Assembly: GCA_000004985.1 (NCBI GenBank)
Contig: GG738910.1
Length of the DNA: 64,000 nt
Source: Naegleria gruberi
Taxonomy: Eukaryota
Direction: 5' to 3' (one strand)
The notes under the pieces are model-generated. The model was not told where the DNA came from. It worked only from the letters and a program-made list of their open reading frames with translations, and made no database searches. Positions within the stretch are counted from its first letter, which is position 1. Every line of letters begins with the position of its first letter. This document shows, piece after piece, positions 1 through 46,739 of the stretch. Both the position numbers and the translations under genes were made by a program.

Positions 1-1492
1 CAAGTTGTTTTACAATCTTTGGGTAGACCTTTGAGTTTCTAGAGTGATTTCCACATAAAACTCCAAATGGCATATCTGATATAACAACATCAATGCTTTC
101 ATTTCTAAAAGGTAAGAATCTAGAATCACAATTTAAAATATGAATATTTCTGTTTTTGCTGCAATTATCCTTCATAGCACTCACTTCATCTAGATTGAAA
201 TCAATATTATAAAGTTGAACTTTAGGATCATTATCAGTGAAGAGATAATTAAGTGAGAGCGAAAGAGTACCACTTCCTGCAAATGGATCAACAAAAGTAA
301 CTAATTGTGATTGTTGGAATAATTTGTCGCGTAAAATTGAATTTTCCATCAATAAAGTTTTCCAAAGCATGTAGCTTGTTTGAGGTTTCAAGGTAGATTT
401 TCCGTAGGTTAATCTAATATCTTGTTTAGTGTATGAATAAATCAAATCACATGAATTCAATACATTCAATTCGTCCTCACTGAGATTACTATCAATAACT
501 TGATTGTTCAAAGAAAAATGTCTAATTTTCAATTCTTCTAAAGCATGTAATGGAGGGGACAATAGCATTCCTATAAACACTCTATCAATATCCAAATAAA
601 TTAAAATGTCAAGGTCATACTTTTTCAGGTTAACCTTCATGTCCTTACAAATTGTTTCTCCAATTCCGTATCCATACTCGGCGGCCATATCCATTGATTT
701 GTAGTCATGCTTCAAAATACTTGTTTGTTTTCTTACACCAGTAGCCCTAAAGTTGGTATCCTTGGAATAAAGGTTTTGTTTTTCAAACTTTTTGCAATAT
801 AATTTTTCGAATAGTTCAAAAGATTGTTTCCATGCTTGAGTATCTTGCTCTCTTTTTGGTATAGTTTCTGCAAATATTGGCATTGCAGTCTCTTTATCAA
901 AAGGTATATCAGGAACAATGCAAATAAATGAATACACAAAATCAATACTAGGAATAGCATTTAAATGGCAGACTAAATAAACTAGATTTTCCATAAATAA
1001 ATTATTATCACTTCCTTTAGAAGAAACATTAAATATTAATAATCCATTTCTAGAATATAAAAATTCAATTTCAAATAAATTAGAAAAATTAATAAATGTC
1101 ACTTTGTGACTCTCACTCAAAGTTTTTAGCTCGTTTGGTACCGAGTTTTCCACCTTTTTCATAAATTTACCAGCAATAGTTGTTGGATAATCGTGGACCC
1201 TAATTTTCGGATTTAATTTTTCATACCAATTAAATTGCAAATTTGAGTCAAAGAGTGAAAGAATTTCATCCTTCACAATTTGTTCAAAGCCATGTGTATG
1301 ACTCACAAGAAAAGTGTGTTCTTGTTTCTGTTGTTCATTTGAATGGCATGCAGACCTTGTCAAAATAGGATGATATACCTCTCCGCAATGTCCCATAGCA
1401 TCTGGTGGAAGTGGTTGTTTTTCCTTTTTCTTCTTCTTTTGTGATGAAGGGAATTTATTTTGTGTGGTATTGTTGCCTTCTTGATTTACCAT
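1..1492 (-). CDS. SAM-dependent (N-methyl)transferase with N-terminal THUMP-like region, copy A; ATG at 1492..1490, open reading frame continues past window start (3' ~190 nt missing)
   Basis: Continuous minus-strand ORF from ATG (MVNQEGNNTTQNKFPSSQKKKKKEKQP...). Motif I DPFAGSGT and motif IV DMPFG are seen in the paralogous copy at 44.5-44.9 kb. It is ~97% nt-identical to 42975-44885 but lacks that copy's 465-bp insert, frameshift and stop. It is not in the ORF track because it has no stop inside the window. Confidence 0.55.
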   Translation of the reverse strand, partial: MVNQEGNNTTQNKFPSSQKKKKKEKQPLPPDAMGHCGEVYHPILTRSACHSNEQQKQEHTFLVSHTHGFEQIVKDEILSLFDSNLQFNWYEKLNPKIRVHDYPTTIAGKFMKKVENSVPNELKTLSESHKVTFINFSNLFEIEFLYSRNGLLIFNVSSKGSDNNLFMENLVYLVCHLNAIPSIDFVYSFICIVPDIPFDKETAMPIFAETIPKREQDTQAWKQSFELFEKLYCKKFEKQNLYSKDTNFRATGVRKQTSILKHDYKSMDMAAEYGYGIGETICKDMKVNLKKYDLDILIYLDIDRVFIGMLLSPPLHALEELKIRHFSLNNQVIDSNLSEDELNVLNSCDLIYSYTKQDIRLTYGKSTLKPQTSYMLWKTLLMENSILRDKLFQQSQLVTFVDPFAGSGTLSLSLNYLFTDNDPKVQLYNIDFNLDEVSAMKDNCSKNRNIHILNCDSRFLPFRNESIDVVISDMPFGVLCGNHSRNSKVYPKIVKQL

Positions 1493-1525
1493 TATTTTTA
1501 ATTTTAAAAATTACAAAACAAAGAC

Positions 1526-4444
1526 ATGTTTTCTTTTCAGAGGTGCCTCTCTCCATCCTCATCAAACAACGGATCTGCAAGTGGCAGTTTTGTGAGGTGT
1601 GCTGAGACTTTGGAATTTATTCATAATAATTATAGAAAAGTAAAAAACACATCTTCCGGCCAGGAATCAAATACTCAGCCTTTTATTAATAATATTCAAA
1701 ATGTTGCTGGTCATTTTGCATTACATTTGTTTGGTGGTAAATTAATTATTGGTCTTGATAATATTCCTTTTTCGAGGCAAAATAATTCATCACAATTATA
1801 TTCTACGTTAATAGATTTATTTCAAACAAAAGATTTTTCAATATTTAATCAAAATCAACCACTTTCTCCCATGCTATGTTGTTATGACAAGGATGGATTC
1901 ATATATTCGGGATTTGAAATTAAAGAAGAGGTATCGGAACAATCTAGTGGATATAACTTTGGTTCTAGTTTTATTAAAGATTTGACCGTAGTAAGATTTA
2001 TCACGATCAATAGAAGTGGACAAGTAATTATTTGGAGATACCATGAAGATAGTACTGCATGGAAGGTTGAAAACATTTTTAATTTAATTGGAGGAAGTAC
2101 AAGTGTAAAAATTGAATATGCAACCGTACTAAGTTCATCAAGAACAATTATCTACAGGACGAGCAGTTCCCTAAATGGATCTGAAAATATTTTAAACATG
2201 CATTCTACTAACCATGGGAATTCATCATTCGTTTTTAGTAGAAGTAGACAAGAGGATAACCTCTTACATATTATTGAGTCTAAAAATTCTACAAATACTA
2301 CCAACATTCTAATAATTACAAAATCGAATATTTATTTATTTGATATTAAAAATAAGAAAGAAGTTTCACACTTAAAGAATATCAAGAAATTTTCTGAGAA
2401 TGAGAAGATAGACCCATCTATTATTTATTACTTATCCATAATAATTCATCCAATCACGAAAGAAGTAATTATTCTTGATTCTACATTTACAGTTTCTATT
2501 TATTCACACGATTTGAAAATTCACAAGAAATTAAACATCAAGGTGAATCAAAATTGTAAAAATTTGAATAGGGTACAAACATGTCTAATCCATAACACTT
2601 TCCTAGCATTTTATGACTCAAGCAGCAACATGTCTATTTATGATTTATTTAGTGGGTGTTTGATTTCAACAGTTATGATACCAAGTGACTTTACATTTGG
2701 AGAAAACTCCACAGTCACCTTGCTTGGAAATGGTTGCTTGAATTTAACTATTGAACAATCATTTACACTGTATTTATATGGTAAATCTCTTATTTATGAG
2801 CTGAAGTGTCCCCCATTGACTGAAATAATCAAGGCTAGCTCATTAACATCTAATTCTAGTCATAGCTATAATCACTTGCTGAAAGAATTCAAATTATTTC
2901 ATATTTACTGTAAAAATATAACCGAAGATATGCACAACAGCCCTAATAAGGTTACTGCAAATGTCAAGCAGTCTATTTCCCATCATTTAGAAAATCCATC
3001 TCTAGTTTGGACTTCTTGCACCACACTCCTTGAACAATCTAATAACTTAAATGATTCCGACCAATTTATTGATAACTATCCACCAATTAATACCTCTTTT
3101 TGGAAAAATAGAGTTGATAATCAGCAAAACTCAAGTAATACTCATAACTCATCTTCCTCTAATCAATCATTCAGTAGATTGACTCCATTGAATATGAGTT
3201 TAGTTCCTCCTCTTTATCAATCTTCATCTATTTGTAAAGATCAAATTTCAAATTTGGATATTTTAAAAGATTTTTCTAAATCACCAACACAATTAGAAGA
3301 TGAAATTGATTTTGATAATCTGACAGATATCGAGCTGTATGATCTGATTGAGACCAATCCATCCAAACTTTTATTACATTTGTTCAAAATTTGTGACTTG
3401 AATGAATTGAAAGCTATACTTGATAAAGGTACTACCAATGTAGATGCACCTAATATTTATGGATTACAATTGCCCTCTATGGAAAGTATGAAACCAATTA
3501 CAACTTTGATGAATTTCTATGAACAAAATTATGAAGAGAATATCAATCCACTTGATCTTTATAGAGTTGAGGAGAATAGAAATGAAGACTATGTAGTTTA
3601 CCAAAATAAGGTGTTTAACGCTTTGGAGCCAAAGAGAAATGCCAACCACACACGAAAGGGACTATTGTACATTGAAATATTGATCAAGACATTATTCTTC
3701 CATTGTGATTGCCCTCAAATAATTTTAATTCTAATCATAATGATGGAGGATTACAAATTAAAAGAATTGAATATTAGAAGGGAGCAATTGAAACAAGAAA
3801 TCGAGAACATCTCAAAGAAAAAATCACCTAATACTGCATCCTCATCAAATTTGACAACTACAACCAAAAACTATCAAATGGAACAATTCAATTTACAAAA
3901 TCTTCAAACGGAATATCAAGAGATTAATACAAAGCTGAAAAATAGTCTAAAACAAAAGTACAGTAAGGAAATTCAGAACATTATTGACTTCTCTCAAGAA
4001 GTAATGACACCACTCTCAGAAATGCAATTAAAAACACTTGCTCAACTCTATTTGTGGCAAGGTGAAAAATTGCATGCCCTTAGACTCTACATTGCACACA
4101 ATATAGAGGAACAAATCATCAAATTAATATCCTCCTACTATCTCAATCAACAAGGCAGTTTCCCAATTGAGGAGCAATATCAACTGTTGAATTTGCTCTT
4201 TGAGTACTGTCTCTCTGTGAAATGTTCTCCAACAGCAAAGGAAACACTCCTATCATATGCTTGGCAATTGATGCCACTCTCATACAGTGTTTTTGATTTC
4301 TTTTCCAAATACAGATCCGAGAGAATATTATCGGATAGTAATGGCAAAGTTTTTACCTCAGATGACGAAACAGTTGGTCAATATCTACAAGGATTACAAT
4401 CTTTCACCAACATGAAATTAAAGCTTGCCACACAAATGAAATAA
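1526..4444 (+). CDS. large (972 aa) Asn/Ser-rich hypothetical protein; possible beta-propeller N-half and alpha-solenoid C-half, function unknown
   Basis: Uninterrupted ORF from a real ATG at 1526, only 33 bp from the divergent start of the methyltransferase gene. Rare codons (TCG, CGG, ACG) suggest low expression. I recognised no diagnostic motif. Confidence 0.45.
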   Translation: MFSFQRCLSPSSSNNGSASGSFVRCAETLEFIHNNYRKVKNTSSGQESNTQPFINNIQNVAGHFALHLFGGKLIIGLDNIPFSRQNNSSQLYSTLIDLFQTKDFSIFNQNQPLSPMLCCYDKDGFIYSGFEIKEEVSEQSSGYNFGSSFIKDLTVVRFITINRSGQVIIWRYHEDSTAWKVENIFNLIGGSTSVKIEYATVLSSSRTIIYRTSSSLNGSENILNMHSTNHGNSSFVFSRSRQEDNLLHIIESKNSTNTTNILIITKSNIYLFDIKNKKEVSHLKNIKKFSENEKIDPSIIYYLSIIIHPITKEVIILDSTFTVSIYSHDLKIHKKLNIKVNQNCKNLNRVQTCLIHNTFLAFYDSSSNMSIYDLFSGCLISTVMIPSDFTFGENSTVTLLGNGCLNLTIEQSFTLYLYGKSLIYELKCPPLTEIIKASSLTSNSSHSYNHLLKEFKLFHIYCKNITEDMHNSPNKVTANVKQSISHHLENPSLVWTSCTTLLEQSNNLNDSDQFIDNYPPINTSFWKNRVDNQQNSSNTHNSSSSNQSFSRLTPLNMSLVPPLYQSSSICKDQISNLDILKDFSKSPTQLEDEIDFDNLTDIELYDLIETNPSKLLLHLFKICDLNELKAILDKGTTNVDAPNIYGLQLPSMESMKPITTLMNFYEQNYEENINPLDLYRVEENRNEDYVVYQNKVFNALEPKRNANHTRKGLLYIEILIKTLFFHCDCPQIILILIIMMEDYKLKELNIRREQLKQEIENISKKKSPNTASSSNLTTTTKNYQMEQFNLQNLQTEYQEINTKLKNSLKQKYSKEIQNIIDFSQEVMTPLSEMQLKTLAQLYLWQGEKLHALRLYIAHNIEEQIIKLISSYYLNQQGSFPIEEQYQLLNLLFEYCLSVKCSPTAKETLLSYAWQLMPLSYSVFDFFSKYRSERILSDSNGKVFTSDDETVGQYLQGLQSFTNMKLKLATQMK

Positions 4445-15894: not shown

Positions 15895-16441
15895 ACAAAT
15901 AAAAATATTTCTTAATTGTTTTTTTGCAGGGTTTGGCACTAAACTGATACATTCCAACAAACTCTCTTGTTCCATTTCTTACCATGTCATTTGATATTTG
16001 AGATAATTTCACCACTTCATTTCAATTTTAGCCCTTGGACGAACGAATTCTTTAAATTCTATATTCTCTTGTTTAGAAATATTAATTGCATATAAATCAG
16101 TTAAGGTTCTGATTTTATAGAAAAAGGTAGATAGAAATATATCCAGAAAAATATAAATAGAATGCAAGTTTTTCATTTTTGTTTGTAGAAGACTATGACA
16201 TAAATAATTGTGCATGAGATAGATATTCATGAATAGAGTATATCATAAAAATAAGTTCAGCTTCTGATAGATCTGGAAATTGTTTCAAATTTTCAAAATA
16301 CTCCTTTGTTTGCTGGTAGTTTCTTCTTCGCTTGAATAGTTCAAGACCATACCACGAGTGAAATCTTTGAAATTGGGAACATTTTCTTCCAATTCAAATC
16401 TTTCAAATCATTCAAAAGTCTAGCATCTATCAGTTTCAAAC

Positions 16442-18199: not shown

Positions 18200-19145
18200 A
18201 AACTAAAATTCTGTATCAACTGTTAAAAACGCTGTATATGCCTTCGAATATGAATTTACTGCAATTGGTTATGCATCGAATTAGAAGCAATTCTCACATG
18301 ACTGATAATGTTTATTCGTAATGAATGATTCAGATCAATAAATCTTGCTGACGATTATTCAATAATAACCGTATACTGGTATACTACCTTCGGTGTCAAT
18401 AATATGGTATTCAGTTAGTGCAAGGCCAAATTGATAGAAAAATTCACATAACTGGAGGATACAAAATCAGCAATCCAACCAGAATTCAAATAAACCAATT
18501 TTCTTCATACTTGGAAAGAGTCTCGATTGGATATTGATAATTTGCTTCTTACCATTTCGATCATGGGATTTCGCTACACCAAAAAACTGAACCGAAGGTC
18601 CTTCACATTTAAGTGGTGATAACTCTATCATTAATTCGGTAAGTTGTCGATCTATTCGAATTACCATTGTTTTCTAGTTCTGTATCTGAGGAAATTAATT
18701 GCATAGGGAAACTGTGAAAATATTTTTAAGCAAAGTAATCCATATTCTGGTAGAAGTACTTGTTTTCAACTAGGTATCAATTATTCAGGTCTGAGAGTGG
18801 TTGGAGCCTGATATAGTCATGATGATATTCCCATTAACTTTCTGTGTTATTATTGAAGAGATGTATGTTGAAAGAGAAACAAGTTTTATAAGTTAATTAA
18901 TCATGAATACTTAAGTAATTGAGAGGAATGTGTACAACGGTCGATTCGGAATTTGTTGTTGACTATTAATCGTCCTATTGATCTTCTTTAATAATGATGA
19001 TCATCGAGGAAGCTGTTATTAACATTGGCTTTTCATAAGTTGAAAGATAAGATCGGAGGTTCAGCATGCAACGTTAATGCTGTTAAGCTATCACATGGCT
19101 AAAGTAAATATTCTACGGAATCTCGTTATTTAAAAAACAATAAAA

Positions 19146-20312
19146 ATGTCTGAACCAACTGCTATTGATATTACTCAAATTCCACCTCAAATTCATCATA
19201 CAAAAGTGGCCTTAATTTCTGGTGTAACTGGACAGGACGGTTCTTACCTCGCAGAATTGCTCTTGGAAAAGGGATACACCGTTTACGGTATTATTAGACG
19301 TTCATCATCATTCAATACCGGTAGAGTTGAACACTTGTGTAAGGACATGCACGTTCTTTCTTCCAGTATGTTATTTAAATTCATGATTAATACTAAAATT
19401 TAGATAGGATTCAAGCTTGTTTATGGTGATTTGACTGATACTGGGAATCTTATTTCCATAATATCAAAGATTAAGCCTGATGAAATTTATAATCTCGGTG
19501 CTCAATCTCATGTTAAAGTCAGCTTTGAGATGCCTGAATACACTGCTAATGTTGATGCTGTTGGTACATTGAGAATGTTGGAAGCTATTCGTGCTTGTGG
19601 ATTAGAAAAGAAGACAAGATTTTATCAAGCTAGTACTTCTGAATTGTATGGTTTGGTTCAAGAAATCCCCCAAAAAGAAACCACTCCTTTCTATCCTCGT
19701 TCTCCTTATGCTTGTGCAAAGTTGTATAGTTACTGGATTGTCATTAATTATAGAGAAGCTTACAACATGTTTGCTTTGAACGGAATTCTTTTCAATCACG
19801 AAAGTATTAGAAGAGGACCAACATTTGTAACCAGAAAGATCACTATGGCTGTTGCTCGTATTCATCTTGGATTGCAAGATTGTTTGTATTTGGGTAATTT
19901 GGATGCTGAAAGAGATTGGGGGCATGCCAAGGATTATGTTAAAGCTATGTGGTTGATGCTTCAACAAGAAAAGCCAGCCGATTACTGTGTTGCCACTGGT
20001 GAGAAACACAAGGTTAGAGAATTTGTTGAAAAATCTTTTGCTGTTCTCGGAAGGAGGGTTGAATGGAAAGGAACACCAGGTACAGTTGATGAATACGGAG
20101 AAGTGGACGGTATTGTTAGAGTTAAAGTAGATCCTAGTTATTTCAGACCAACCGAAGTTGAACTCTTGATTGGTGATCCAACAAAGGCAGAAACTGAATT
20201 AGGATGGAACAGAAATGTTGGTTTTGATGAATTGGTGAAGGGAATGGTAGAAGGAGATGTTGAACTTTTACAAAAGGATGATGTTGAACTTGTTAAGAAG
20301 CAGTATCACTAA
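19146..20312 (+). CDS. gmd: GDP-mannose 4,6-dehydratase; join(19146..19365,19408..20312), 42-nt intron GTATGT..ATAG
   Basis: Track ORFs 19146..19403 and 19431..20312 are in the same frame, separated by a TAG inside a GTATGT...AG segment. Splicing gives ...[31 protein letters not shown] blocks seen: [62 protein letters not shown]. Confidence 0.93.
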
Positions 20313-20630
20313 TAAATGAAATTCCCTTTATAAATCCTGGAACCTTCTTGCTGCTTCAAGAACATCTTGTAAAAATGGTTTTTGCACGTTATGAATTCTA
20401 ATAGTTGGAATCTTAAAACTTTGATCACAATGATATCATGTTCAGTTGAACTATTAGTGAAACTATCACTACCTGAATTATAAATATAATAATTGTTGAT
20501 TGTTATTGACTTTTCTTTATTCAACAAACAATTTCCGTTCTCTATGTTGTTCTTCTCTGGGTTTTATATTAAATAGGAACAATTTAATAAATTTATTCAA
20601 TCACGACAATTAAGATTTATTTTTTAAAAA

Positions 20631-22109
20631 ATGACCATCAAAATGAGGAAGGCAATCATATCAATTCTTTGCTATTTATTGTCTTCATTTCTGTTGTATT
20701 ATTTGTTTTCTGTGAGGAGAGAGACTGCGCCTGTTAAAACCACGTTACTTAAACCATTAGATTCTACTCCAATCTTCGAATTAACAAACCCTTCCCATAT
20801 GGAAAATTCTTTTATGTGGTATTTAAGGCAAATTAAGGACCAGAAAATAGGACATGAACCTCTCTTAGAACCAATTAATTTTGCTTTTGATAGCATAAAA
20901 CTTAATGATAAGAAATGGTTTCACTTTTTTTATGATGAAGATAACAACACAAAGCAATGTAAAGTTAAAGGGTGTAAACTATTTTCCATTGATGCATCAA
21001 TAATCTCTAAAAGATTAGATGCAATAATCTACAATGTTTATATGGCCAATGGTCCAGAAATATCGAAAAAATTGTTCGAAAAATCGACAGGTAATGGAAA
21101 GAATGCCTTGCTTTCTTTAAAGAAAGTGTACAAGCAATTGAATTCAACTGCTATGGATAAGGAATTTGCAAACACTATATGGAAAGAAATGGCTCCTTTG
21201 AAAATTGTTTTTAGTTATGAACAATATACTGTAGGGGTTGTCAATCAACATATTGATTATATAGATATAAGTGGATGCAGCCATAGAAATTGTTCTATCT
21301 TTTGTGGATATAATTTTAACACAATCCAACTTGATGAAAAGGTGATAGGGACTAAAAAGAGCACGCATAATTCATTGTGTTCATTTATTTCAAATTGTGA
21401 TGTAATTGATGCAGCCCGAAGAATTCAAGATGTACTAAAGTTATCCACTTTTGTTAATGGAAGACATTATGGACAATGTGGAAAGAATGTTGCTGAAGAT
21501 TCCAGAGGAAAATTATATGAATTAGAGCATAATTGTAAATTTTATACTGCTTTTGAGAATACTAGAAAGGAAGATTATGTAACTGAGAAGTTTTTTGAAG
21601 GAATTAAGGCAATAGAGAATGGAGCAAAGGTATTGATGATTTATGATGGGGCTACAAATGTTGAAAGTTTCGGATTTCCAAAAGATGTTTTCATTAATAG
21701 AAACGACTTTAGCTCGGTGGATGAATTGGGAAAATATTTAAAGTCACTGAGTGAAGATGAATTATTATTCAACCAAACTTTTCTGAGGGCTTTTTCAAAA
21801 CAGAATATACCAATCATCGAAAAAGTCTTTAATTATCATTATTTGAAAAGAACCGACACAACAGTATGTAGAATGTGTACATCTATTGCAGAGGTGAAAC
21901 TCGCTAGGTACCTTCTTTACAAATGTGGATTGTTTGAGAAGGCTACATGGGGTGAATTTCGAGAGAGAATGAAAGTATTGCTTAGTAATGAGTCAAATAG
22001 ACTTTCTATTCTTGACTCAATGTTTGAAATTGCTTATGGAAGAGTGTTCAAGAAAAATTTGTCTGAAACAAATTGGAATGACTATAGCTATAACTATAAC
22101 ACACCTTAA
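20631..22109 (+). CDS. GT10 alpha-1,3/4-fucosyltransferase paralog B (type II membrane protein)
   Basis: Real ATG. TM IISILCYLLSSFLLYYLF. GT10 motif CKFYTAFENTRKEDYVTEKFFEGI, CSFISNC, C-terminal CRMC. Roughly 45% identical to paralog A across the catalytic domain. Confidence 0.85.
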   Translation: MTIKMRKAIISILCYLLSSFLLYYLFSVRRETAPVKTTLLKPLDSTPIFELTNPSHMENSFMWYLRQIKDQKIGHEPLLEPINFAFDSIKLNDKKWFHFFYDEDNNTKQCKVKGCKLFSIDASIISKRLDAIIYNVYMANGPEISKKLFEKSTGNGKNALLSLKKVYKQLNSTAMDKEFANTIWKEMAPLKIVFSYEQYTVGVVNQHIDYIDISGCSHRNCSIFCGYNFNTIQLDEKVIGTKKSTHNSLCSFISNCDVIDAARRIQDVLKLSTFVNGRHYGQCGKNVAEDSRGKLYELEHNCKFYTAFENTRKEDYVTEKFFEGIKAIENGAKVLMIYDGATNVESFGFPKDVFINRNDFSSVDELGKYLKSLSEDELLFNQTFLRAFSKQNIPIIEKVFNYHYLKRTDTTVCRMCTSIAEVKLARYLLYKCGLFEKATWGEFRERMKVLLSNESNRLSILDSMFEIAYGRVFKKNLSETNWNDYSYNYNTP

Positions 22110-25601: not shown

Positions 25602-27053
25602 ATGAACATTGCTAGTACGGAAGAGACTCTTCCCATGGAAGTAAAAATGATAATATTCGAGTACTTATCGATAGTAGAATTGAATCATTTGAGGATTGTT
25701 TGTAAAGAATGGAATGATACACTTTGTTCATCAAAGTCTAATTTGATTTGGTCAGATTTGATTAACAATATGAAAGGTGGAAAATTATTATTTATTCCAA
25801 ATGATGATGGAAAAATTGTACAATTAACGAATAGTCAGCTGAGAAAATTGGCTAAACTTCTTTACTTGAAACAACAATCTTCATTAAACTTGTATAATTT
25901 GATCAGACAAAGAGCAACTGAACCACAAATTATTGAAGATCCTTCCGATGAGGACAGTGATATGGATTCTACTGATGAGGAAAAATCAAACGAACAACAA
26001 GAAACAAATACCATTATTGAAAAGGTAACTGATTTCCAGCTCATTCCACAGAAAGAACTTATTACAGAAGATATTCAACAGATTCAAAATAATTCAAAGG
26101 AAAAAACCTTGTTATCAAGAGGATTGGAAGCCAGCACAGTTGATAATGCTTCACAAAATATTGATTGTACAAGGGATGTAAGAAGTAGAAGAAAGTTTTG
26201 GTCTTCTAAAGGAAGTAAAACCACCCAAGTCAATGAGCATTTAATTTATCAATTGCAAGATCCTTGGTTTGTTGTGGAAAGAGAAAGAAAATTAGCAAAG
26301 CTAAAATCATCCACTTATGGATATCTTGATATCATTCATAAATATGTAAATACTTCTCGTGAAGAAAATCCAATGGATGATTTGGACCACATCAATCAAT
26401 ATTCAAATATTGGAATACTATACCTGGAAAGGATGAGCATTTGTCCATTTGTTGCTAGTTGGCAAAGCAATAACTGCTATTCACCTAAATTTGTATCACT
26501 CTCAATTGGAAAATCATCTGACAAGAATTCATTTATCAAAATTACTCAAGATATGCCAGTTGAACAAAATGGTGATTTTCAACAATTCGCACTAGGTCCA
26601 CTGGTTATCATCTATGAAAGAGCATTTAATTCAGATAATGAGGATGACCTATTGGTGAAATCAAAGGTACCTATCGTGCAGGAGGAAGTCAGGGATGATA
26701 CTATGGACGATGAAGAAGAAAACTTTGAAACAGAAGATGAAGAGGAGGAAGAAGGAGAACAAGGAAGACTAATGATTTCTGTGGAGGATGCCATGTTGGC
26801 CTTGGAAGAATCTGGTGGAGTGTTCAATGCAAGATTTATGGAAGTAGTTCAACAACTTGTAAGGGAAAGAATGAGAACGCAAGAAATGGAACAAGAGGAA
26901 AACAAAATGCTGAGTCAACTTACCTGCAGAGAACATGGGGATCTTATTCTACGAGCTGATTTGATTGGAAAGGTACAAACACAACCAGGCGATAATTTAT
27001 ATTACACCTGTTTAGAATACTTTGATGTTTCTGGATCAGCATTTACTTTGTAG
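25602..27053 (+). CDS. F-box domain protein with acidic (D/E-rich) tracts
   Basis: Real ATG. N-terminal LPMEVKMIIFEYLSIVELNHLRIVCKEWNDTL matches the F-box consensus (LP.E....I...L....L.....VCK.W). Confidence 0.6.
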   Translation: MNIASTEETLPMEVKMIIFEYLSIVELNHLRIVCKEWNDTLCSSKSNLIWSDLINNMKGGKLLFIPNDDGKIVQLTNSQLRKLAKLLYLKQQSSLNLYNLIRQRATEPQIIEDPSDEDSDMDSTDEEKSNEQQETNTIIEKVTDFQLIPQKELITEDIQQIQNNSKEKTLLSRGLEASTVDNASQNIDCTRDVRSRRKFWSSKGSKTTQVNEHLIYQLQDPWFVVERERKLAKLKSSTYGYLDIIHKYVNTSREENPMDDLDHINQYSNIGILYLERMSICPFVASWQSNNCYSPKFVSLSIGKSSDKNSFIKITQDMPVEQNGDFQQFALGPLVIIYERAFNSDNEDDLLVKSKVPIVQEEVRDDTMDDEEENFETEDEEEEEGEQGRLMISVEDAMLALEESGGVFNARFMEVVQQLVRERMRTQEMEQEENKMLSQLTCREHGDLILRADLIGKVQTQPGDNLYYTCLEYFDVSGSAFTL

Positions 27054-41192: not shown

Positions 41193-42860
41193 ATGTCTCC
41201 ATACCCTACAACAGGCTTTGGATTTCATAGTATAGGGAAATTTTTGAAACAAGGAGATGATAAATCCTTATTACCTCATTTTCAACAGGCCGAAAACACC
41301 TCAAATATATTTATCTTAAGAAGATATAGATGGTTTTTGGTTGGTGTTTTCGTGTGTTTCTTTATGTGTTTTGTACGGTGGAATACTAATTCTGAGGATG
41401 AAATCAATAATAATACTGTGATCATAACCTCTGATCATAAAATTGGAAACAAGATTGAATCAATGCAAACTCATTCTACACTTGTGGTGAGTGAACAAGG
41501 CATTAGACTTGAACCAGAGGTGAAGCAGGTACCTATGGTTAAGGAGGATCCAAAACACACCTTCACCGGAATTTTATTACATTTTAAAAGAAGAAATGGT
41601 ATTAAGAAAATCCTTTCAATGATGATTAAATACCCTTTTATTTCTCAAGTAATTGTGTGGAATAACAATCCTGACGTTAGCATAACTCACCAAAATCTGA
41701 TAGAGGACTATCTTTCTGATGGAGAAAAATCAAAAACACTCGAAAAGTACAAGGAAATGGTTTTTATTCACAATCATAATGAAAATATTAAGGACAAAGC
41801 AAAATATTTAGCTTGTGAATTGGCAAATACTACAGCTTGTTTCTACTGTGATGATGATTGGGATATAACAAGATACGCCAACGCTCTACTAGCAGACTTC
41901 TACAATGAGCCTAGCGTTATGCATAGTGTAACAGAACCATACACGTATTACACAAACCTTGTTTGGTCCTTTTATGATTCAAATATTAATCTTCACACAG
42001 CTTTTGCTTGGATTGGTTGTGGGTCTATGTTCTTGAAGTCACTTGCTGTTAACCACCTCCAAAAAGTTGACAAGTTTTTGGAATCGAATCCAAAATTGAA
42101 AAATCTTGTTCCTCTGAGTGATATATTTTTCTCAATATGGCAAAATAATGCTCCTTCACAGATTGTTGCTAACATTGCAGAAATAAGTGTAGAGAAGGAA
42201 AATGTGGCATTTTCTAGTCAGGGTGGGTTTTTACAATTACAACATGAATCAAGTATGATGGCTATTAAGATTCTTCATGATGAACTCACATACAACTCTT
42301 TCTTTACAATATTCCCAAAGAAAGAGATTGAAAATCCATTTCCTCTCTTCCTTAAATCACCTTCTTCAAAGGATTCATTCTTATTTTATTCAGACTTGTT
42401 TCCGTTCTTATTGAAAAATGTTTCCTTTGACATTACAAACCATGTTCATGCAAAAAGAAGCACTAGAGATAACCTTCCTCAAGGTGCTGATGTTGATTTT
42501 TTTTACAACAACAACCCAACAAGGGCGGTTGATTCTGATCCATCATCTTGTTGGCAATCAAACAGAAACGTTGGCATGGACAGTTTTTTTGGAGTGGATC
42601 TGTATTCTGTTGTAACAGATATCGCTATTGAAATTATTTACTCACACACAAAAGATTTTCATGCAACCCTCAAAACAAGACACTCCATTGACAGGAAAAA
42701 TTGGGTTGACACAAGTGCAGCCAGCTATGAATCGAATAACTTTTCTCGCCACTCATTCAAAGACTCAGTAAGATATATCGAGTTCTTCACTCAAACTGGC
42801 TCAAGAAACAAATTTGGTATTTGTGATTTTAAAGTTTTCAAGAATGGAACCTCTATCTAA
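41193..42860 (+). CDS. type II membrane glycosyltransferase, GT64/EXTL-like catalytic region fused to C-terminal F5/8 type C (discoidin) domain
   Basis: TM FLVGVFVCFFMCFV. Catalytic region FTGILLHF..ISQVIVWNNNP...ACFYCDDDWD...VW parallels the GT64 pattern (FT.VI...QIIVLWN...LDEDT...VW). C-terminal AVDSDPSSCWQS...GVDL...RYIEFF...FKVFKNG fits the discoidin fold. Confidence 0.55.
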   Translation: MSPYPTTGFGFHSIGKFLKQGDDKSLLPHFQQAENTSNIFILRRYRWFLVGVFVCFFMCFVRWNTNSEDEINNNTVIITSDHKIGNKIESMQTHSTLVVSEQGIRLEPEVKQVPMVKEDPKHTFTGILLHFKRRNGIKKILSMMIKYPFISQVIVWNNNPDVSITHQNLIEDYLSDGEKSKTLEKYKEMVFIHNHNENIKDKAKYLACELANTTACFYCDDDWDITRYANALLADFYNEPSVMHSVTEPYTYYTNLVWSFYDSNINLHTAFAWIGCGSMFLKSLAVNHLQKVDKFLESNPKLKNLVPLSDIFFSIWQNNAPSQIVANIAEISVEKENVAFSSQGGFLQLQHESSMMAIKILHDELTYNSFFTIFPKKEIENPFPLFLKSPSSKDSFLFYSDLFPFLLKNVSFDITNHVHAKRSTRDNLPQGADVDFFYNNNPTRAVDSDPSSCWQSNRNVGMDSFFGVDLYSVVTDIAIEIIYSHTKDFHATLKTRHSIDRKNWVDTSAASYESNNFSRHSFKDSVRYIEFFTQTGSRNKFGICDFKVFKNGTSI

Positions 42861-42935: not shown

Positions 42936-45073
42936 ATGGTGCTAGAGGAATTAACAGATGCCGAAAGACCTTCATCACAAAAGAAGAAAAAGGAAAACAA
43001 CCACTTCCACCCGATGCTATGGGCCATTCGGGAGAAGTCTATCATCCTATTTTGACAAGGTCTGCAGGCTATTCAAATGAACAACAGAAACAGGAACACA
43101 CTTTTCTTGTGAGTCATACACATGGCTTTGAACAAATTGTGAAGGATGAAATTCTTTTACTTTTTGACTCATTAAATTTGATGTAATTTAATTGGTATGA
43201 AAAATTAAATCCGAAAATTAGGGTCCACGATTATCCAACAACTATTGCTGGTAAATTTATGAAAAAGGTGGAAAACTCGGTACCAAACTACCTAAAAACT
43301 TTGAGTGAGAGTCACAAAGTGACATTTGTTAATTTTTCTAATTTATTTGAAATTGAATTTTTATATTCTAGAAATGGATTATTAATATTTAATGTTTCTT
43401 CTAAAGGAAGTGATAATAATTTATTTATGGAAAATCTAGTTTATTTAGTCTGCCATTTAAATGCTATTCCTAGTATTGATTTTGTGTATTCATTTATTTG
43501 CATTGTTCCTGATATACCCTTTGATAAAGAGACTACAATGCCAATATTTGCAGAAACTATACCAAAAAGAGAACAAGATACTCAAACATAGAAACAATCC
43601 TTTGAACTATTCGAAAAATTATATTGCAAAAAGTTTGAAAAACAAAATCTTTATTCCAAGGATACCAACTTTAGGGCTACTGGTGTAAGAAAACAAACAA
43701 GTATTTTGAAGCATGACTACAAATCAATGGATATGGCCGCTGAGTATGGATATGGAATTGGGGAAACAATTTGCAAGGACATGAAGGTTAACCTGAAAAA
43801 GTATGACCTTGACATGTTAATTTATTTGGATATTGATAGAGTGTTTATAGGAATGCTATTGTCCCCTCCATTACATGCTTTAGAAGAATTGAAAATTAGT
43901 TCAGCATGTTCAGGACATGGTGGTTGCATCTCACCAAATAATTGTTCATGTGTCTCTGGATATTATGGAAGTGATTGTAGCCAATTTGATTGTTATGGAA
44001 CTGCCTCCACAAATACATCAACATGTACTAATCACGGTAGTTGTATATCCCCAAATAACTGTTCCTGCTTATCAGACTATTATGGAAAAGAGTGTACTCA
44101 ATATGATTGTTTTGGAACTATTTCAACAAATGGTTCAGTATGTTCTGGACACGGTACCTGTCTCTCACCAAATAACTGCTCATGCTTAGCTGGATATTAT
44201 GGAAATGATTGTAGTGAATTTGATTGTTACGAAACTGCCTCCACAAATGCATCAGCATGTTCTGGACATGGTGGTTGCATCTCACCAAATAATTGTTCTT
44301 GTTTAGATGGATACTACGGAAATGTTTGTAGTCAATTTGATTGTTATGGAACTGCCTCAACAAGACATTTTTCTTTGAATAATCAAGTTATTGATAGAAA
44401 TCTCAGTGAGGACGAATTGAATGAATTGAATTCATGTGATTTGATTTATTCATACACTAAACAAGATATTAGATTAACCTTCGGAAAATCTATCTTGAAA
44501 CCTCAAACAAGTTACATGCTTTGGAAAACTTTACTGATGGAAAATTCAATTTTACGAGACAAATTATTCCAACAATCACAATTAGTTACTTTTGTTGATC
44601 CATTTGCAGGAAGTGGTACTCTTTCACTCTCACTTAATTATCTCTTCACTGATAATGATCCTAAAGTTCAACTTTATAATATTGATTTCAATCTAGATGA
44701 AGTGAGTGTTATGAAGGATAATTGCAGCAAAAACAGAAATAATCATATTTTAAATTGTGATTCTAGATTCTTACCTTTTAGAAATGAAAGCATTGATGTT
44801 GTTATATCAGATATGCCATTTGGAGTTTTATGTGAAAATCACTCTAGAAACTCAAAGGTCTACCCAAAGATTGTAAAACAACTCGAAAGAATTGTTAAGC
44901 CTGATGGAATTGTAATGCTGTTGACAATTGAACTTACCTTACTGGAATCTCAACTGAATGCCAGAAATCGGTGGACATTCACAACACAAAAAGTAACACT
45001 TGGAGATTTAGGTAAGGAATCCAAGCAACCATTTACATTGGCAAGAAGAAACCTCCACAAAATAAATTTATGA
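42936..45073 (+). pseudogene. methyltransferase copy B (inverted paralog of the 1..1492 gene), disrupted by a 1-nt deletion (~42995) and a TGG>TAG nonsense (43589..43591) and carrying a 465-bp in-frame insertion; a C-terminal ORF 43706..45073 remains open
   Basis: Direct nucleotide comparison with the reverse complement of 1..1492. About 97% identity from ~42975 onward. Copy A reads through where copy B has stops. DPFAGSGT/DMPFG methyltransferase motifs are intact in the open C-terminal ORF. Confidence 0.6.
43898..44362 (+). repeat. 465-bp array of ~4 tandem 117-bp (39-aa) EGF-like/tenascin-type cysteine repeats inserted in frame into methyltransferase copy B
   Basis: Repeat unit (S/T)ACSGHGGCISPNNCSC(L/V)xGYYGxDCSQFDCYGTASTN(T/A)S, iterated about 4 times. 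First and fourth units are near-identical at the nt level. The sequence is absent from copy A, which goes straight from ...gaaaatt to agacattttt. Confidence 0.75.
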
Positions 45074-45303
45074 TCAGTAATCAATTAAACCTCTTTTGCT
45101 GACAAGTCATCCGGCCGTGTTCTGTAATCACATGTCATTAATGTAACAAGCAGAAGAAAGGCTAGATTTTTCCACATCAAAAAAACAAAAAAATATTTGG
45201 TAAGTGTTTGGCTGTTCTCACTCTTTGCTCTTACACTGCTCGTATTGATGATTTGATAATGATGATGCGATCGCAAAAACAACAACAGTAGTATACTATC
45301 AAG

Positions 45304-46399
45304 ATGATTTTCTTAGAAGCTGGAAACAAAATTATTCAAGAAATCCTTCTCAAGCAATTTGATGCTTCGTACGTATTTGATGTTTTTAGCTTGATGTTTT
45401 ACTAACAACACCACAACATTTAATCTTTAATCTATTCTTTATACTGTGTAAATTAATATAACAACAACATACCATGATTCAATTTATCATCGCTCACATA
45501 TTAACAACAAAAACAGAACAAGACAACCAAGCGTCCATGTTAACGGAGGTGATTTTGATGGTACTAAATTTGTTATTCAATCTGATGCTGGTAATAAGAA
45601 CCTTCTCACCTTGTCCATCTATGTTCATGGTGAAAAGGAATTTAATCAATATGGAGGTATTGAATTGGTCAAGAAAACTTTACCAGGATTGGATGTTAAA
45701 GCACCAGGTTTAACAGTCGATGATCAAAAACATACTTTCACAGTTACTATTGATGTTGAAAAGGAAGAAAAGAATAAGGACAAGTGGTTAAAGGAATTGC
45801 CACGTGTCAAAACTACATATATGAGTGCTGTCTTTTTGCAAGCCATGGATAAACACGCAAAGGGAGAACAATTCGAACCAATCAAAGTTCCATACAGACC
45901 AGATGAAAATATTTACATTATTTCTTATAAGGGCAAGTCTTTGGTTGTTGTTTATAGTATTTTGTTCAGAGATCCTGATGATGTCGTTTTTGCCAATGGT
46001 TTCTTGTGTGAATTCAAGGATGCCAAGAAGGATCGTGCTCTCAATGCTGCTCCAAATATGAACTTTTCACAAGGTCAATTGGCTGGTGAATTGGTTGACG
46101 TAAAGAGTGTTACTGAACCAAAGGACGAAAGAACTTTGAAGAAGGAAGGTTGGGGCTTTGTTTCTATTGGTTTGTTGGATAATCATACCAAGGCTGATAA
46201 GCAATTGAATACTGCTGAATTATTGCTTGGTTTCCGTTCATATTTGCACTACCATTTGAAGTGTATGAAGGCTTACATGCACATTCGTATGAGAGAATCT
46301 GTTGAAAAGTTAATGTTGAACTTGAATGCTGCTAAGGATTTGAGCGGTAAGAAGACTGAAAAGAAGACCATGTCTGGTAGAACTTTCAAACAACAATAA
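45304..46399 (+). CDS. arpc2: Arp2/3 complex subunit 2 (ARPC2/p34-Arc); join(45304..45368,45517..46399), 148-nt intron GTACGT..TACTAAC..CAG
   Basis: Exon 1 MIFLEAGNKIIQEILLKQFDAS matches the ARPC2 N-terminus ([23 protein letters not shown]). Exon 2 ...DFDGTKFVIQS...LSIYVHGEKEF...GFRSYLHYHLKCMKAYMHIRMR aligns with the conserved core and the RxYLHYHIKCSKAY block. The first AG after the TACTAAC branch point is the acceptor. Confidence 0.9.
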
Positions 46400-46739
46400 C
46401 TTGTTTGAGTGAGAGAACATAATGACATCAGTGTCATTCACATCTTTTTGTAGTTATAAAATCACCTTATTTATTTATTTATAATTAAGTAGACTCATAT
46501 TGATGATTATTCTCAATCATATCTTCCACATTTGTATGGGGAATACCCTAACGTTTATAAAAACAAAATACTGTTTTACATGCACAAAAGCTTGTCAAGG
46601 TTGCAACTTCTCCCTCAACTATAATATAATATGGAAACTGGATAGAAAAAAGTACTGAAATCTACATAGATTTTAAACAATGCAAATATCTAAGCAAGTT
46701 ATATTGTTCCTTAATGATATTGAGGTCTCATTCTACTTT

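What the first reader, a model, noticed from the sequence alone, without database searches (positions are those of the whole stretch)
42936..45073. Inverted segmental duplication of a methyltransferase gene; the second copy is broken and has captured an EGF-like repeat array
About 2 kb at 42975-45073 is ~97% identical to the reverse complement of 1-1492. Copy A reads straight through from its ATG. Copy B has a 1-nt deletion in an A-run (~42995), a TGG>TAG nonsense at 43589-43591 and a 465-bp in-frame insertion. The first ~45 nt of the CDS and the promoter are unrelated between copies, so the duplication breakpoint lies inside the coding region. The C-terminal methyltransferase domain of copy B remains an open 455-aa ORF fused to the new repeat module. 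This is a candidate young chimeric gene or a pseudogene in the making.
Basis: seen in the sequence. Interest (0 to 1): 0.7.

Follow-up and report, generated by a model that had tools for sequence, protein, structure and literature searches.

The report
Decayed duplicate methyltransferase gene with EGF insert
In the amoeba Naegleria gruberi an RNA-methyltransferase gene exists as two inverted copies 41.5 kb apart, and the copy at the original chromosomal position is a dead pseudogene that picked up a piece of an EGF-repeat gene, which is ordinary genome decay rather than a new gene.

Summary
Window 42968-44883 matches the reverse complement of 3-1451 at 97.2% identity over 1444 aligned nt, interrupted by a 465-nt in-frame insert (43898-44362) of four 117-nt EGF_2 repeats. 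The window is Naegleria gruberi. Copy A is NAEGRDRAFT_74053 (563 aa, intact THUMP + UPF0020 RNA methyltransferase). Copy B is the annotated 448-aa model NAEGRDRAFT_74071.

Besides the A-run frameshift, the TAG (W221*) and the insert, B carries a TAA at 43182-43184 and a second frameshift near 45014. That frameshift destroys a C-terminal motif conserved in all orthologues. At ortholog-invariant columns, B carries 7 derived changes and A carries 1. The substitution pattern fits B being neutral since birth, and its 455-codon ORF is expected to stay open by chance.

The broken copy, not the intact one, sits at the ancestral position next to ARPC2, as in three single-copy outgroups. The functional gene has therefore effectively relocated.

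The EGF array matches the 39-aa repeat type of giant N. gruberi surface proteins, but no donor was found (best 54% identity). Whether the duplication arose at an inversion breakpoint or by copy-paste is unresolved. Verdict: a mis-annotated pseudogene, of low interest.

The parts
1..1492 (-). Copy A: the in-window part (codons 1-497 of 563) of the intact THUMP + UPF0020 methyltransferase gene NAEGRDRAFT_74053. Its ATG is at 1492.
   Evidence: Open frame. 100% identical to P0001. Pfam hits THUMP and UPF0020.
3..1451 (-). Arm of the inverted duplication in copy A. It is cut off by the window edge at its 3' end.
42936..45102 (+). Copy B: the pseudogene (annotated as NAEGRDRAFT_74071) at the ancestral ARPC2-adjacent position. 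It runs from its own ATG (42936) to the stop of the original, now frameshifted, reading frame (45100-45102).
42968..43897 (+). Copy B homology arm, 5' part, corresponding to A 1451-524.
42986..42997 (+). Lesion 1: loss of AAG plus one A in an A/G run. The net change is -4 nt, which shifts the frame.
   Evidence: frame switch seen
43171..43184 (+). Lesion 2: two 3-nt insertions and a CAA>TAA change, giving an in-frame stop at 43182-43184 (Q86*).
43589..43591 (+). Lesion 3: TGG>TAG (W221*). This Trp is invariant in all four intact homologues.
43898..44362 (+). Lesion 4: a 465-nt insert (4 x 117 nt minus 3) encoding four EGF_2 repeats of 39 aa. It has a 2-nt AG microhomology at the junctions and sits in the variable linker between the THUMP and methyltransferase domains.
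44363..44883 (+). Copy B homology arm, 3' part, corresponding to A 523-3. Protein-level homology to copy A continues to about 45069.
45011..45017 (+). Lesion 5: a 1-nt deletion (GGTAA-GGA). The conserved C-terminal motif G-x-Q-A-T-I-Y-I-C-K-K-K is thrown out of frame.
43706..45073 (+). Residual open reading frame (455 aa from TTG; 448 aa from ATG 43727, which is GenBank model XP_002670926).
45301..46399 (+). ARPC2 (Arp2/3 p34) gene, with a short 5' exon near 45301-45366 and a main exon ending at 46399. It is the conserved neighbour that marks the ancestral locus.
41193..42860 (+). Upstream, co-oriented 555-aa gene. Its stop codon is only 75 nt from copy B's ATG.
1526..4444 (+). Divergent 972-aa ORF. 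Its ATG lies 33 nt from copy A's ATG.

Best explanation
**What it is.** The window is nuclear DNA of Naegleria gruberi. A single-copy gene for a THUMP-domain, UPF0020-type RNA guanine-N2 methyltransferase (Trm14/TrmN/THUMPD3-like) was duplicated in inverted orientation in the N. gruberi lineage. The duplication covered the gene from about codon 14 to at least its last codons.

**The two copies.**
- Copy A (1492->1, NAEGRDRAFT_74053) is intact and is the working gene.
- Copy B (42936-45102, annotated as NAEGRDRAFT_74071) lies at the ancestral position beside ARPC2. It is a non-functional pseudogene that has evolved neutrally.
- Copy B has collected two frameshifts, two nonsense codons and replacements at invariant residues.

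**The EGF insert.** Copy B also received a 465-nt fragment (four pre-diverged 117-nt units) copied from one of the genome's many EGF-repeat surface-protein genes. The most likely route is repair of a break with filler DNA, joined through short microhomology (AG). The 455-codon EGF-methyltransferase ORF is a relic, not a new gene. The net effect is that the functional gene moved 41.5 kb and flipped orientation.

**Shown here.** The duplication, the lesions, the ancestral adjacency of B to ARPC2, the asymmetry of derived changes, and the pre-formed nature of the array.

**Inferred.** Lack of expression, the repair mechanism of the insertion, and the origin of the duplication. For the origin I give about 0.45 to duplication at the breakpoint of a ~41.5-kb inversion made by staggered breaks. 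I give about 0.4 to a copy-paste duplication followed by loss of the parent.
For: **Organism and gene models.**

**Duplication.** 97.2% identity over 1444 nt, with the breakpoint at B 42968 / A 1451.

**Lesions.** Five disabling lesions. No single GT-AG intron shorter than 638 nt restores an ORF from B's ATG.

**Orthologues.** The N. lovaniensis, N. fowleri and metagenomic orthologues are single hits without EGF. The insertion point sits directly before the invariant R324/F326, so the insert is derived.

**Relaxed constraint on B.**
- B is the deviant copy at A203, W221, I296, T367, I450, G481 and C550, all invariant in the intact homologues. A deviates only at I134.
- 21 of 41 substitutions are nonsynonymous. 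This rejects both copies being neutral (p = 0.004).
- It is compatible with A constrained and B neutral since birth (p = 0.12-0.23).
- The 3' ORF staying open is expected with P about 0.5-0.7.

**Ancestral locus.**
- The orthologue's 3' end lies within about 1.5-3 kb of ARPC2 in L001, L005 and L004.
- L004 is collinear with B(+)->ARPC2(+).
- N. gruberi has a single ARPC2 model, alone in its 90% cluster.

**EGF array.**
- It hits Pfam EGF_2 four times.
- Its units differ by 11-23% at the nt level, against 2.8% between A and B. It therefore arrived as a block.
- The best local matches are N. gruberi giant EGF proteins with the same 39-aa period.
Against: - The insert is in frame, in sense orientation and free of stops. 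For a random capture from a coding donor this is roughly a 1-in-6 event. It also lies in a variable linker where it might be tolerated.
- The SAM-binding motif (DPFAGSGT) and the DMPFG motif are intact in B.
- The uncorrected Nei-Gojobori dN/dS between the copies is 0.23. Taken alone, this could suggest that B was constrained for part of its history.
- No donor with more than 54% local identity was found among cluster representatives, so the source of the array is not demonstrated.
- No expression data or raw reads could be examined.
- Copy A's ATG is only 33 nt from the ATG of a divergent gene. That is odd if A's 5' flank is ancestral.
Confidence: 0.8

Rival explanations
1. Copy B's 3' ORF (NAEGRDRAFT_74071) is a real, young chimeric gene. 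It would encode a truncated THUMP remnant, four EGF repeats and a methyltransferase domain, expressed from a new internal start.
For: - A 455-codon ORF is open.
- The EGF insert is in frame and in sense orientation.
- UPF0020 scores 48.8 bits and the SAM and catalytic motifs are present.
- A gene model exists in GenBank.
Against: - The ORF begins inside the THUMP domain, and Pfam finds no THUMP hit in it.
- A 1-nt deletion near 45014 removes the C-terminal motif conserved in all orthologues.
- Invariant residues within the ORF are replaced: T367I, I450N, G481E.
- EGF modules are disulfide-bonded extracellular modules. This ORF has no signal peptide, and the partner enzyme is intracellular (established knowledge).
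- The ORF's openness is expected by chance.
- The ORF lies behind two stops and a frameshift, with no separate promoter region.
Confidence: 0.07
2. Origin model 1: the two copies are the duplicated breakpoint of a ~41.5-kb inversion (window 1493-42967) made by staggered breaks. Copy A kept the ancestral 5' flank and promoter. Copy B kept the ancestral 3' flank (ARPC2) but lost its promoter and first ~14 codons, so it was dead on arrival.
For: - The two copies are inverted and sit at the two ends of one segment.
- B retains the ancestral 3' neighbour.
- The breakpoint lies inside the CDS, and B's ATG is only 75 nt after the stop of the upstream gene.
- The model explains without luck why the copy at the ancestral site is the dead one.
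- The substitution pattern is compatible with neutrality since birth.
- Un-inverting the segment restores the Hsp70/ARPC2 co-orientation seen in L007 and the F-box/methyltransferase orientation of N. fowleri.
- The mechanism is documented for 17 of 29 Drosophila inversions (PMC1885836).
Against: - The F-box orientation in N. lovaniensis fits the present, non-inverted N. gruberi order instead.
- The outgroups' head-to-head neighbour has no homologue next to A or anywhere in the window.
- The 33-nt spacing between A's ATG and the divergent gene's ATG is unlike the 180-444 nt seen in outgroups and looks like a fresh junction.
- The left flank of A lies outside the window and could not be fetched.
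Confidence: 0.45
3. Origin model 2: a 5'-truncated copy of the ancestral gene (locus B) was pasted in inverted orientation 41.5 kb away, beside the start of the 972-aa gene. There it gained an in-frame ATG and the use of that gene's promoter region. The parental copy B then decayed. This is gene relocation by duplication and loss of the parent.
For: - B is at the ancestral site.
- A's ATG sits only 33 nt from a divergent gene's ATG, as expected for a recent insertion into a promoter region.
- The N. lovaniensis F-box(+)...methyltransferase(+) order is collinear with F-box(+)...B(+).
Against: - It needs a truncated copy to acquire a start codon and a promoter by chance. I estimate about 20% for an in-frame ATG before a stop.
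- It then needs the intact parent to be the copy that was lost.
- B's tail-to-head arrangement, 75 nt behind another gene, differs from the head-to-head arrangement in N. fowleri and N. lovaniensis.
Confidence: 0.4
4. The duplication, or the lesions, or the EGF insert is an assembly or sequencing artefact. Examples would be a collapsed or misplaced haplotype, or a chimeric clone.
For: No reads could be inspected. No independent assembly holds these exact proteins.
Against: - The copies differ by 41 substitutions and at least 7 indel events. Each is embedded in unique, gene-dense flanks on the same scaffold.
- Artefactual duplicates are normally identical.
- Allelic haplotigs would share their flanks.
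- The transition-rich, third-position-rich substitution pattern (27 transitions to 14 transversions; 23 of 41 at the third codon position) looks like evolution, not error.
Confidence: 0.04
5. The duplication is old and the 97% identity reflects gene conversion between the inverted copies. The EGF insert could then be old too.
For: - Inverted repeats 40 kb apart can undergo gene conversion (general knowledge).
- No close donor exists for the EGF array, which would fit an old insertion.
- Identity varies from 93% in the 5' arm to 98% elsewhere.
Against: - Only N. gruberi has two copies.
- Conversion would tend to erase B's lesions or spread them into A. Yet five lesions persist, spread across the whole length, each flanked by 98%-identical sequence.
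- The homology edge is sharp, with no residual similarity beyond it.
Confidence: 0.08

Closest known systems
Trm14 / TrmN / THUMPD3-THUMPD2 family (THUMP domain + UPF0020 Rossmann-fold RNA guanine-N2 methyltransferases)
   Same: - Copy A has a THUMP domain followed by a PF01170 methyltransferase domain, with DPFAGSG (SAM-binding) and DMPFG motifs.
- The best solved relatives are archaeal Trm14 (3tlj, E = 2.9e-7 with the profile) and T. thermophilus 3tma.
   Different: - Similarity is limited to the methyltransferase domain and is far below NCBIfam equivalog cut-offs (40 bits against 280).
- The Naegleria proteins are longer (551-593 aa), with a long N-terminal region.
- The substrate is unknown.
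- Copy B is not a functional member.
Duplicated (non-processed) pseudogenes mis-annotated as protein-coding ORFs
   Same: - Copy B is a genomic duplicate of an intact paralogue.
- It has frameshifts, nonsense codons, a foreign insertion and replacements at invariant sites.
- The gene predictor salvaged the longest remaining ORF.
   Different: Here the decayed copy is the one at the ancestral locus, so the event amounts to gene relocation. The foreign insertion happens to be an in-frame coding repeat, which makes the relic look like a domain-shuffled gene.
Inverted duplications at inversion breakpoints (staggered-break model, Ranz et al. 2007, PMC1885836)
   Same: - Two inverted copies of a non-repetitive genic segment bracket a ~41.5-kb block.
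- One copy keeps the ancestral downstream neighbour.
- The breakpoint cuts a gene and one copy degenerates.
   Different: The inversion itself is not demonstrated here. Outgroup gene orders are too rearranged, and one flank is outside the window.
Templated/filler-DNA insertions at repaired double-strand breaks (microhomology-mediated end joining or template switching)
   Same: A foreign segment of a few hundred nt, copied from elsewhere in the genome, is inserted with 2-nt junction microhomology and no target-site duplication or transposon features.
   Different: - The donor was not identified.
- The insert is almost exactly four repeat units (468 - 3 nt), with both ends at the same repeat phase. 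This hints at microhomology with the repeat boundary, or at a circular intermediate. Neither was tested.
Giant EGF-repeat surface proteins of Naegleria (e.g. NAEGRDRAFT_63708, _82303, _70916, _71475, _53247)
   Same: They share the same 39-aa unit, with the CSGHGxC...NNCSC...GYYGxxC...FDCYG pattern. They are the top local matches.
   Different: Identity is only 45-54% over the array and at most 67% per unit, so none of these representatives is the direct donor. Those proteins have hundreds to thousands of residues of repeats and, in NAEGRDRAFT_63708, a hydrophobic C-terminal segment that looks like a membrane anchor (read from the sequence, not tested). Copy B has four units and none.

Membership tests
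UPF0020 / THUMP-domain RNA methyltransferases (Trm14/TrmN/THUMPD3-like) | PF01170 (UPF0020) methyltransferase domain above the Pfam gathering score | tested here: met
   Copy A scores 35.7 bits and the copy B ORF 48.8 bits, against a cut-off of 22.3.
UPF0020 / THUMP-domain RNA methyltransferases (Trm14/TrmN/THUMPD3-like) | THUMP RNA-binding domain N-terminal to the methyltransferase domain | tested here: met
   Copy A scores 20.8 bits on PF02926 against a cut-off of 20.6, at residues 233-308, so the hit is marginal. The copy B ORF has no THUMP hit. The domain there is cut by W221* and by the ORF start.
UPF0020 / THUMP-domain RNA methyltransferases (Trm14/TrmN/THUMPD3-like) | Equivalog-level similarity to characterised Trm14 (tRNA m2G6 methyltransferase) | tested here: not met
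   NF040721 scores 40.4 bits against a cut-off of 280. PDB relatives match only over the methyltransferase domain. It belongs to the superfamily, but it is not a demonstrated Trm14 orthologue.
UPF0020 / THUMP-domain RNA methyltransferases (Trm14/TrmN/THUMPD3-like) | m2G methyltransferase activity on tRNA or snRNA | not testable with these tools
   Needs biochemistry.
Duplicated (unprocessed) pseudogene | Clear homology to an intact paralogue, retaining genomic (not retro-copied) structure | tested here: met
   97.2% nt identity to copy A. No poly-A tract or target-site duplication.
Duplicated (unprocessed) pseudogene | Disabling lesions relative to the paralogue and to orthologues | tested here: met
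   Two frameshifts, TAA, TAG and a 465-nt insertion. Splicing cannot rescue the ORF.
Duplicated (unprocessed) pseudogene | Relaxed selective constraint on the broken copy | tested here: inconclusive
   Derived replacements at invariant columns run 7 to 1 against B. The nonsynonymous fraction is compatible with B being neutral. With only 41 substitutions, partial constraint cannot be excluded, and the NG dN/dS is 0.23.
Duplicated (unprocessed) pseudogene | No functional transcript or protein | not testable with these tools
   No expression data are available. The gene identifiers do not occur in the searchable literature.
EGF-like repeat (Pfam EGF_2) | Repeated Cys-rich EGF_2 units above the gathering score | tested here: met
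   PF07974 scores 77.3 bits against 22.1, with 4 stretches. The period is 117 nt / 39 aa.
EGF-like repeat (Pfam EGF_2) | Secretory or extracellular context (signal peptide or membrane anchor), as in the native Naegleria EGF proteins | tested here: not met
   Read directly from the translations, with no signal-peptide or transmembrane predictor run: the B ORF begins MDMAAEYGYG..., which is internal THUMP sequence, and shows no signal-like or long hydrophobic segment. NAEGRDRAFT_63708 ends in a hydrophobic C-terminal segment that looks like a membrane anchor.
Inversion-breakpoint duplication (staggered breaks) | Two inverted copies flanking a segment that is inverted relative to outgroups | tested here: inconclusive
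   Inverted copies at both ends of 1493-42967: met. Inversion of the enclosed segment: F-box in N. fowleri and Hsp70 in L007 agree with it, but F-box in N. lovaniensis disagrees.
Inversion-breakpoint duplication (staggered breaks) | Each copy retains one ancestral flank | tested here: inconclusive
   B-ARPC2 adjacency is ancestral. For A's 5' flank, no homologue of the outgroup neighbour was found. A's 3' flank lies outside the window.

The most novel reading that the evidence does not exclude
NAEGRDRAFT_74071 is transcribed and translated. It would then be a very young domain-shuffled gene made without introns or transposons. A microhomology-mediated templated insertion would have dropped four EGF units in frame into the linker of a decaying methyltransferase copy, giving an EGF-methyltransferase fusion with no known counterpart.
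Probability: 0.06. Interest if true: 0.6.

Novelty: new member of a known kind. Interest (0 to 1): 0.22.

Why it matters
The main value is as a correction. XP_002670926 / D2VYC5, an 'EGF + methyltransferase' predicted protein that sits in public databases and feeds domain-architecture surveys, is almost certainly a pseudogene relic. It should not be counted as a novel domain combination.

It is also a clean, datable example in a heterolobosean amoeba of three things:
- a gene changing position through duplication followed by decay of the copy at the original site;
- a coding tandem-repeat block being pasted into another gene by break repair, which is the raw material of domain shuffling in an intron-poor genome;
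- possibly an inversion generated by staggered breaks.

None of this is surprising to a specialist.

Tried and rejected
- **Fetching N. gruberi DNA outside the window.** I wanted to see copy A's 3' flank. Exact-protein look-ups for copy A, copy B, ARPC2 and the 555-aa neighbour all returned nothing.
- **Donor of the EGF array, word-index search.** It returned only 16 hits at 51% identity or less and missed copy B itself, so it is not exhaustive.
- **Donor of the EGF array, exhaustive search.** The HMMER search gave 1994 hits. The best local identity among the top 150 representatives is 54.5%, and the best per unit is 67%. No other EGF array exists in the window.
- **Selection on B.** The uncorrected Nei-Gojobori dN/dS of 0.23 first suggested that B had been under selection for a time. 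Correcting for the observed mutation spectrum removed the signal, so I dropped that claim.
- **Upstream synteny.** I tried to decide which copy keeps the ancestral 5' flank. The N. fowleri and N. lovaniensis head-to-head neighbours (482/561 aa) and other upstream genes have no detectable homologue in the window by tblastx, phmmer --max or a two-sequence profile.
- **F-box orientation as a polarity marker.** It differs between N. fowleri and N. lovaniensis, so it is uninformative.
- **Willaertia magna.** Its ARPC2 locus has no methyltransferase neighbour.
- **L007.** The contig ends before the position where the methyltransferase would lie.
- **Splicing rescue of copy B.** It would need an intron of at least 638 nt, which would delete the whole conserved N-terminal half.
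- **Literature search for the gene identifiers.** No papers.
- **tRNA scan of the window.** None found.
Full report

Yes. The repeat finder reports three collinear inverted arms:
- 3-523 / 44363-44883 (98%)
- 522-1239 / 43182-43899 (98%)
- 1244-1428 / 42987-43171 (93%)

A gapped alignment gives 1403 identities in 1444 aligned positions, or 97.2%. Homology starts sharply at B 42968 / A 1451. Upstream of that point, the 32 nt (B) and 41 nt (A) of coding sequence and the flanks are no more alike than AT-rich random sequence.

The alignment is interrupted by a 465-nt block present only in B (43898-44362). This block is a direct repeat family with a 117-nt period. It is in frame and encodes four Pfam EGF_2 units.

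Copy A is open for 497 codons from ATG 1492 to the window edge.

**2. What organism and what gene?**

A protein search identifies the window as Naegleria gruberi:
- Copy A is 100% identical to residues 1-497 of NAEGRDRAFT_74053 (XP_002670961, 563 aa).
- The 3' ORF of copy B is the annotated 448-aa model NAEGRDRAFT_74071 (XP_002670926).
- Both lie on the same 243,952-nt scaffold.

Only three other homologues were found, each about 50% identical and none with EGF domains. They come from N. lovaniensis (574 aa), N. fowleri (593 aa) and a metagenomic relative (551 aa).

Pfam finds THUMP (marginal) and UPF0020/PF01170 in copy A. The nearest solved structures are archaeal Trm14 and T. thermophilus 3tma, and they match over the methyltransferase domain only. 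NCBIfam Trm14 models match far below their cut-offs. The gene is therefore a THUMP-domain RNA guanine-N2-methyltransferase-like enzyme of unproven substrate.

The window as a whole is ordinary, gene-dense, intron-poor eukaryotic DNA. It holds HMG-CoA reductase, Hsp70, a mitochondrial-type RNA polymerase, V-ATPase D, a DENN protein, ARPC2 and others.

**3.

Comparison with the full-length copy A protein and the orthologues reveals two further lesions.
- Two 3-nt insertions plus CAA>TAA create an in-frame stop at 43182-43184.
- A 1-nt deletion at about 45014 (GGTAA-GGA) frameshifts the C-terminus. The motif G-x-Q-A-T-I-Y-I-C-K-K-K, conserved in all four intact homologues, now lies out of frame.

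This second lesion is inside the 'open' 455-aa ORF. That ORF therefore ends in 17 unrelated residues.

A search for any single GT-AG intron that would give an uninterrupted ORF from B's ATG finds only introns of 638-863 nt. These would delete the whole conserved N-terminal half.

**4. Selection.**

The two copies differ by 41 substitutions (27 transitions, 14 transversions; 23 at third codon positions). Uncorrected Nei-Gojobori gives dS = 0.077, dN = 0.018 and dN/dS = 0.23.

I then weighted by the observed mutation spectrum.
- The neutral expectation is 72.5% nonsynonymous, and 51% is observed (21 of 41).
- This rejects both copies being neutral (p = 0.004).
- It does not reject 'A constrained, B neutral since birth' (expected 58-61%, p = 0.12-0.23).

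Polarising with the orthologues gives a clear asymmetry. B is the deviant copy at seven columns invariant in all intact homologues: A203T, W221*, I296M, T367I, I450N, G481E and C550G. A deviates at one (I134, a conservative change).

About 3.8% of spectrum-weighted substitutions create stops. The 3' part of B remaining open therefore has a probability of about 0.5-0.7 under neutrality.

The data fit a pseudogene. They give no positive evidence that the residual ORF is maintained.

**5. Which locus is ancestral?**

I fetched the orthologues' contigs.
- In N. fowleri (L001) and N. lovaniensis (L005) the order is methyltransferase(+), NamZ(+), ARPC2(-).
- In the metagenomic relative (L004) the order is methyltransferase(+), a 223-aa gene(-), ARPC2(+).
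- tblastx confirms that the only genes these loci share with the window are the methyltransferase, ARPC2 (window 45301-46402) and an F-box gene (window 25.6-27.1 kb).

In the window, ARPC2 begins about 230 nt after copy B's stop and is collinear with L004. N. gruberi has a single ARPC2 model, which is alone in its 90% cluster. A second ARPC2 next to copy A is therefore unlikely.

The broken copy B thus occupies the ancestral position, and the intact copy A is the one at a new position.

**6. The EGF array.**

The four units differ from each other by 11-23% at the nucleotide level. Units 1 and 4 are 89% identical and the other pairs 77-79%. Copies A and B differ by only 2.8%, and the orthologues show that the insert is derived, because it sits directly before the invariant R324/F326 in a variable-length linker. 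The array must therefore have arrived as a pre-formed block rather than being amplified in place.

The junctions share a 2-nt AG microhomology. There is no target-site duplication or transposon feature.

The insert is 4 x 117 - 3 nt, so both ends fall at the same phase of the repeat. The host site (GAAAATTAG) loosely resembles the unit boundary (ACAAATGC/G). This would fit microhomology-guided template switching, or a circular 4-unit intermediate. Both ideas are speculative.

An exhaustive HMMER search finds 1994 proteins with this repeat type. The best local matches are giant N. gruberi proteins (NAEGRDRAFT_63708, _82303, _70916, _71475, and _53247 on the same scaffold) and N. fowleri or Acrasis proteins. 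Local identity never exceeds 54.5%, and per-unit identity never exceeds 67%.

The family of origin is clear, but the donor is not identified. It may be hidden inside a 50% cluster, unannotated, unassembled or lost.

**7. How did the duplication arise?**

Two models remain.

*Model 1: inversion with staggered breaks.* A ~41.5-kb inversion made by staggered breaks duplicates the breakpoint segment in inverted orientation. This is the mechanism inferred for 17 of 29 Drosophila inversions (PMC1885836). Copy A would keep the ancestral 5' flank. Copy B would keep ARPC2 but lose its promoter and first codons, which makes it dead on arrival.
- It explains without luck why the copy at the ancestral site died.
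- It agrees with the Hsp70/ARPC2 co-orientation in contig L007 and with the F-box orientation in N. fowleri.

*Model 2: copy-paste.* A truncated copy was pasted beside the 972-aa gene. It gained a start codon and promoter use, and the parent then decayed.
- It is favoured by the anomalous 33-nt spacing between A's ATG and the divergent gene's ATG.
- It is also favoured by the N. lovaniensis F-box orientation.

The outgroups' upstream neighbours have no detectable homologue in the window. The flank left of copy A could not be obtained. I rate the models about 0.45 and 0.40.

**8. Artefact?**

This cannot be tested without reads, but it is unlikely. The copies differ by 41 substitutions with an evolutionary signature and by several indels. 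Each copy is embedded in unique genes on one scaffold.

**9. Verdict.**

- This is a lineage-specific inverted duplicate pair in which the copy at the original locus is a multiply disabled pseudogene.
- That copy carries a captured EGF-repeat fragment, and it is currently annotated as a chimeric protein.
- It is a tidy example of gene relocation and of repeat capture by break repair, and it corrects an annotation.
- It is not a new kind of element.

Noticed in passing
window 13080-22109: A run of GDP-sugar and fucosylation genes lies on one strand. It comprises a GMPPB-like nucleotidyl transferase (13080-14078), an NAD-dependent epimerase / GDP-mannose-dehydratase-like gene (14887-15894) and two GT10 fucosyltransferases (16442-18199, 20631-22109). 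This is an operon-like functional cluster in a eukaryote.
   Followed up: no
L001 12952-14592; L005 12037-13498; L007 5888-7327: A NamZ-family gene (PF07075/PF20732, a family I know as bacterial exo-muramidases) lies between the methyltransferase and ARPC2 in N. fowleri and N. lovaniensis, and next to ARPC2 in L007. It has no match anywhere in the N. gruberi window. This could be lineage-specific gain or loss of a possibly horizontally acquired gene.
   Followed up: partly
window 10634-12637 (-) and L007 1052-3052: Contig L007 (Logan SRR15442815) has an Hsp70 gene 2 kb from ARPC2 in the same orientation. Its product is 90.6% identical to the window's Hsp70, which lies 33 kb from ARPC2 in the opposite orientation. 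This suggests conserved linkage with rearrangement.
   Followed up: partly
L001 1334-3054 vs L005 1-136; window 25602-27053: The F-box gene upstream of the methyltransferase has opposite orientations in N. fowleri and N. lovaniensis, so small inversions are frequent around this locus.
   Followed up: partly
window 1492-1526: The start codons of copy A (minus strand) and the divergent 972-aa ORF (plus strand) are only 33 nt apart. Other head-to-head pairs in the window are 300-860 nt apart, and the outgroups' equivalent spacing is 180-444 nt.
   Followed up: partly
window 43898-44362: The EGF insert is 4 x 117 - 3 nt, so its two ends fall at the same phase of the repeat. Units 1 and 4 are 89% identical against 77-79% for the other pairs, which hints at a 3-unit higher-order repeat in the donor.
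   Followed up: partly
window 45301-45366 and 45530-46399: ARPC2 appears to have a short 5' exon separated from the main exon by an intron of about 160 nt. This is inferred from tblastx matches to L004. It is one of the few apparent introns in this part of the window.
   Followed up: no
same scaffold, outside the window: A 4502-aa EGF-repeat giant protein (NAEGRDRAFT_53247) is encoded on the same 243,952-nt scaffold. It is not in the window, and its best local identity to the insert is only 52%, so it is not the direct donor.
   Followed up: partly
tool behaviour: The word-indexed protein search with the EGF array did not return NAEGRDRAFT_74071, which contains the query exactly. It also missed all the giant Naegleria EGF proteins later found by the exhaustive search. 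Negative results from that search on repeat queries are therefore unreliable.
   Followed up: yes
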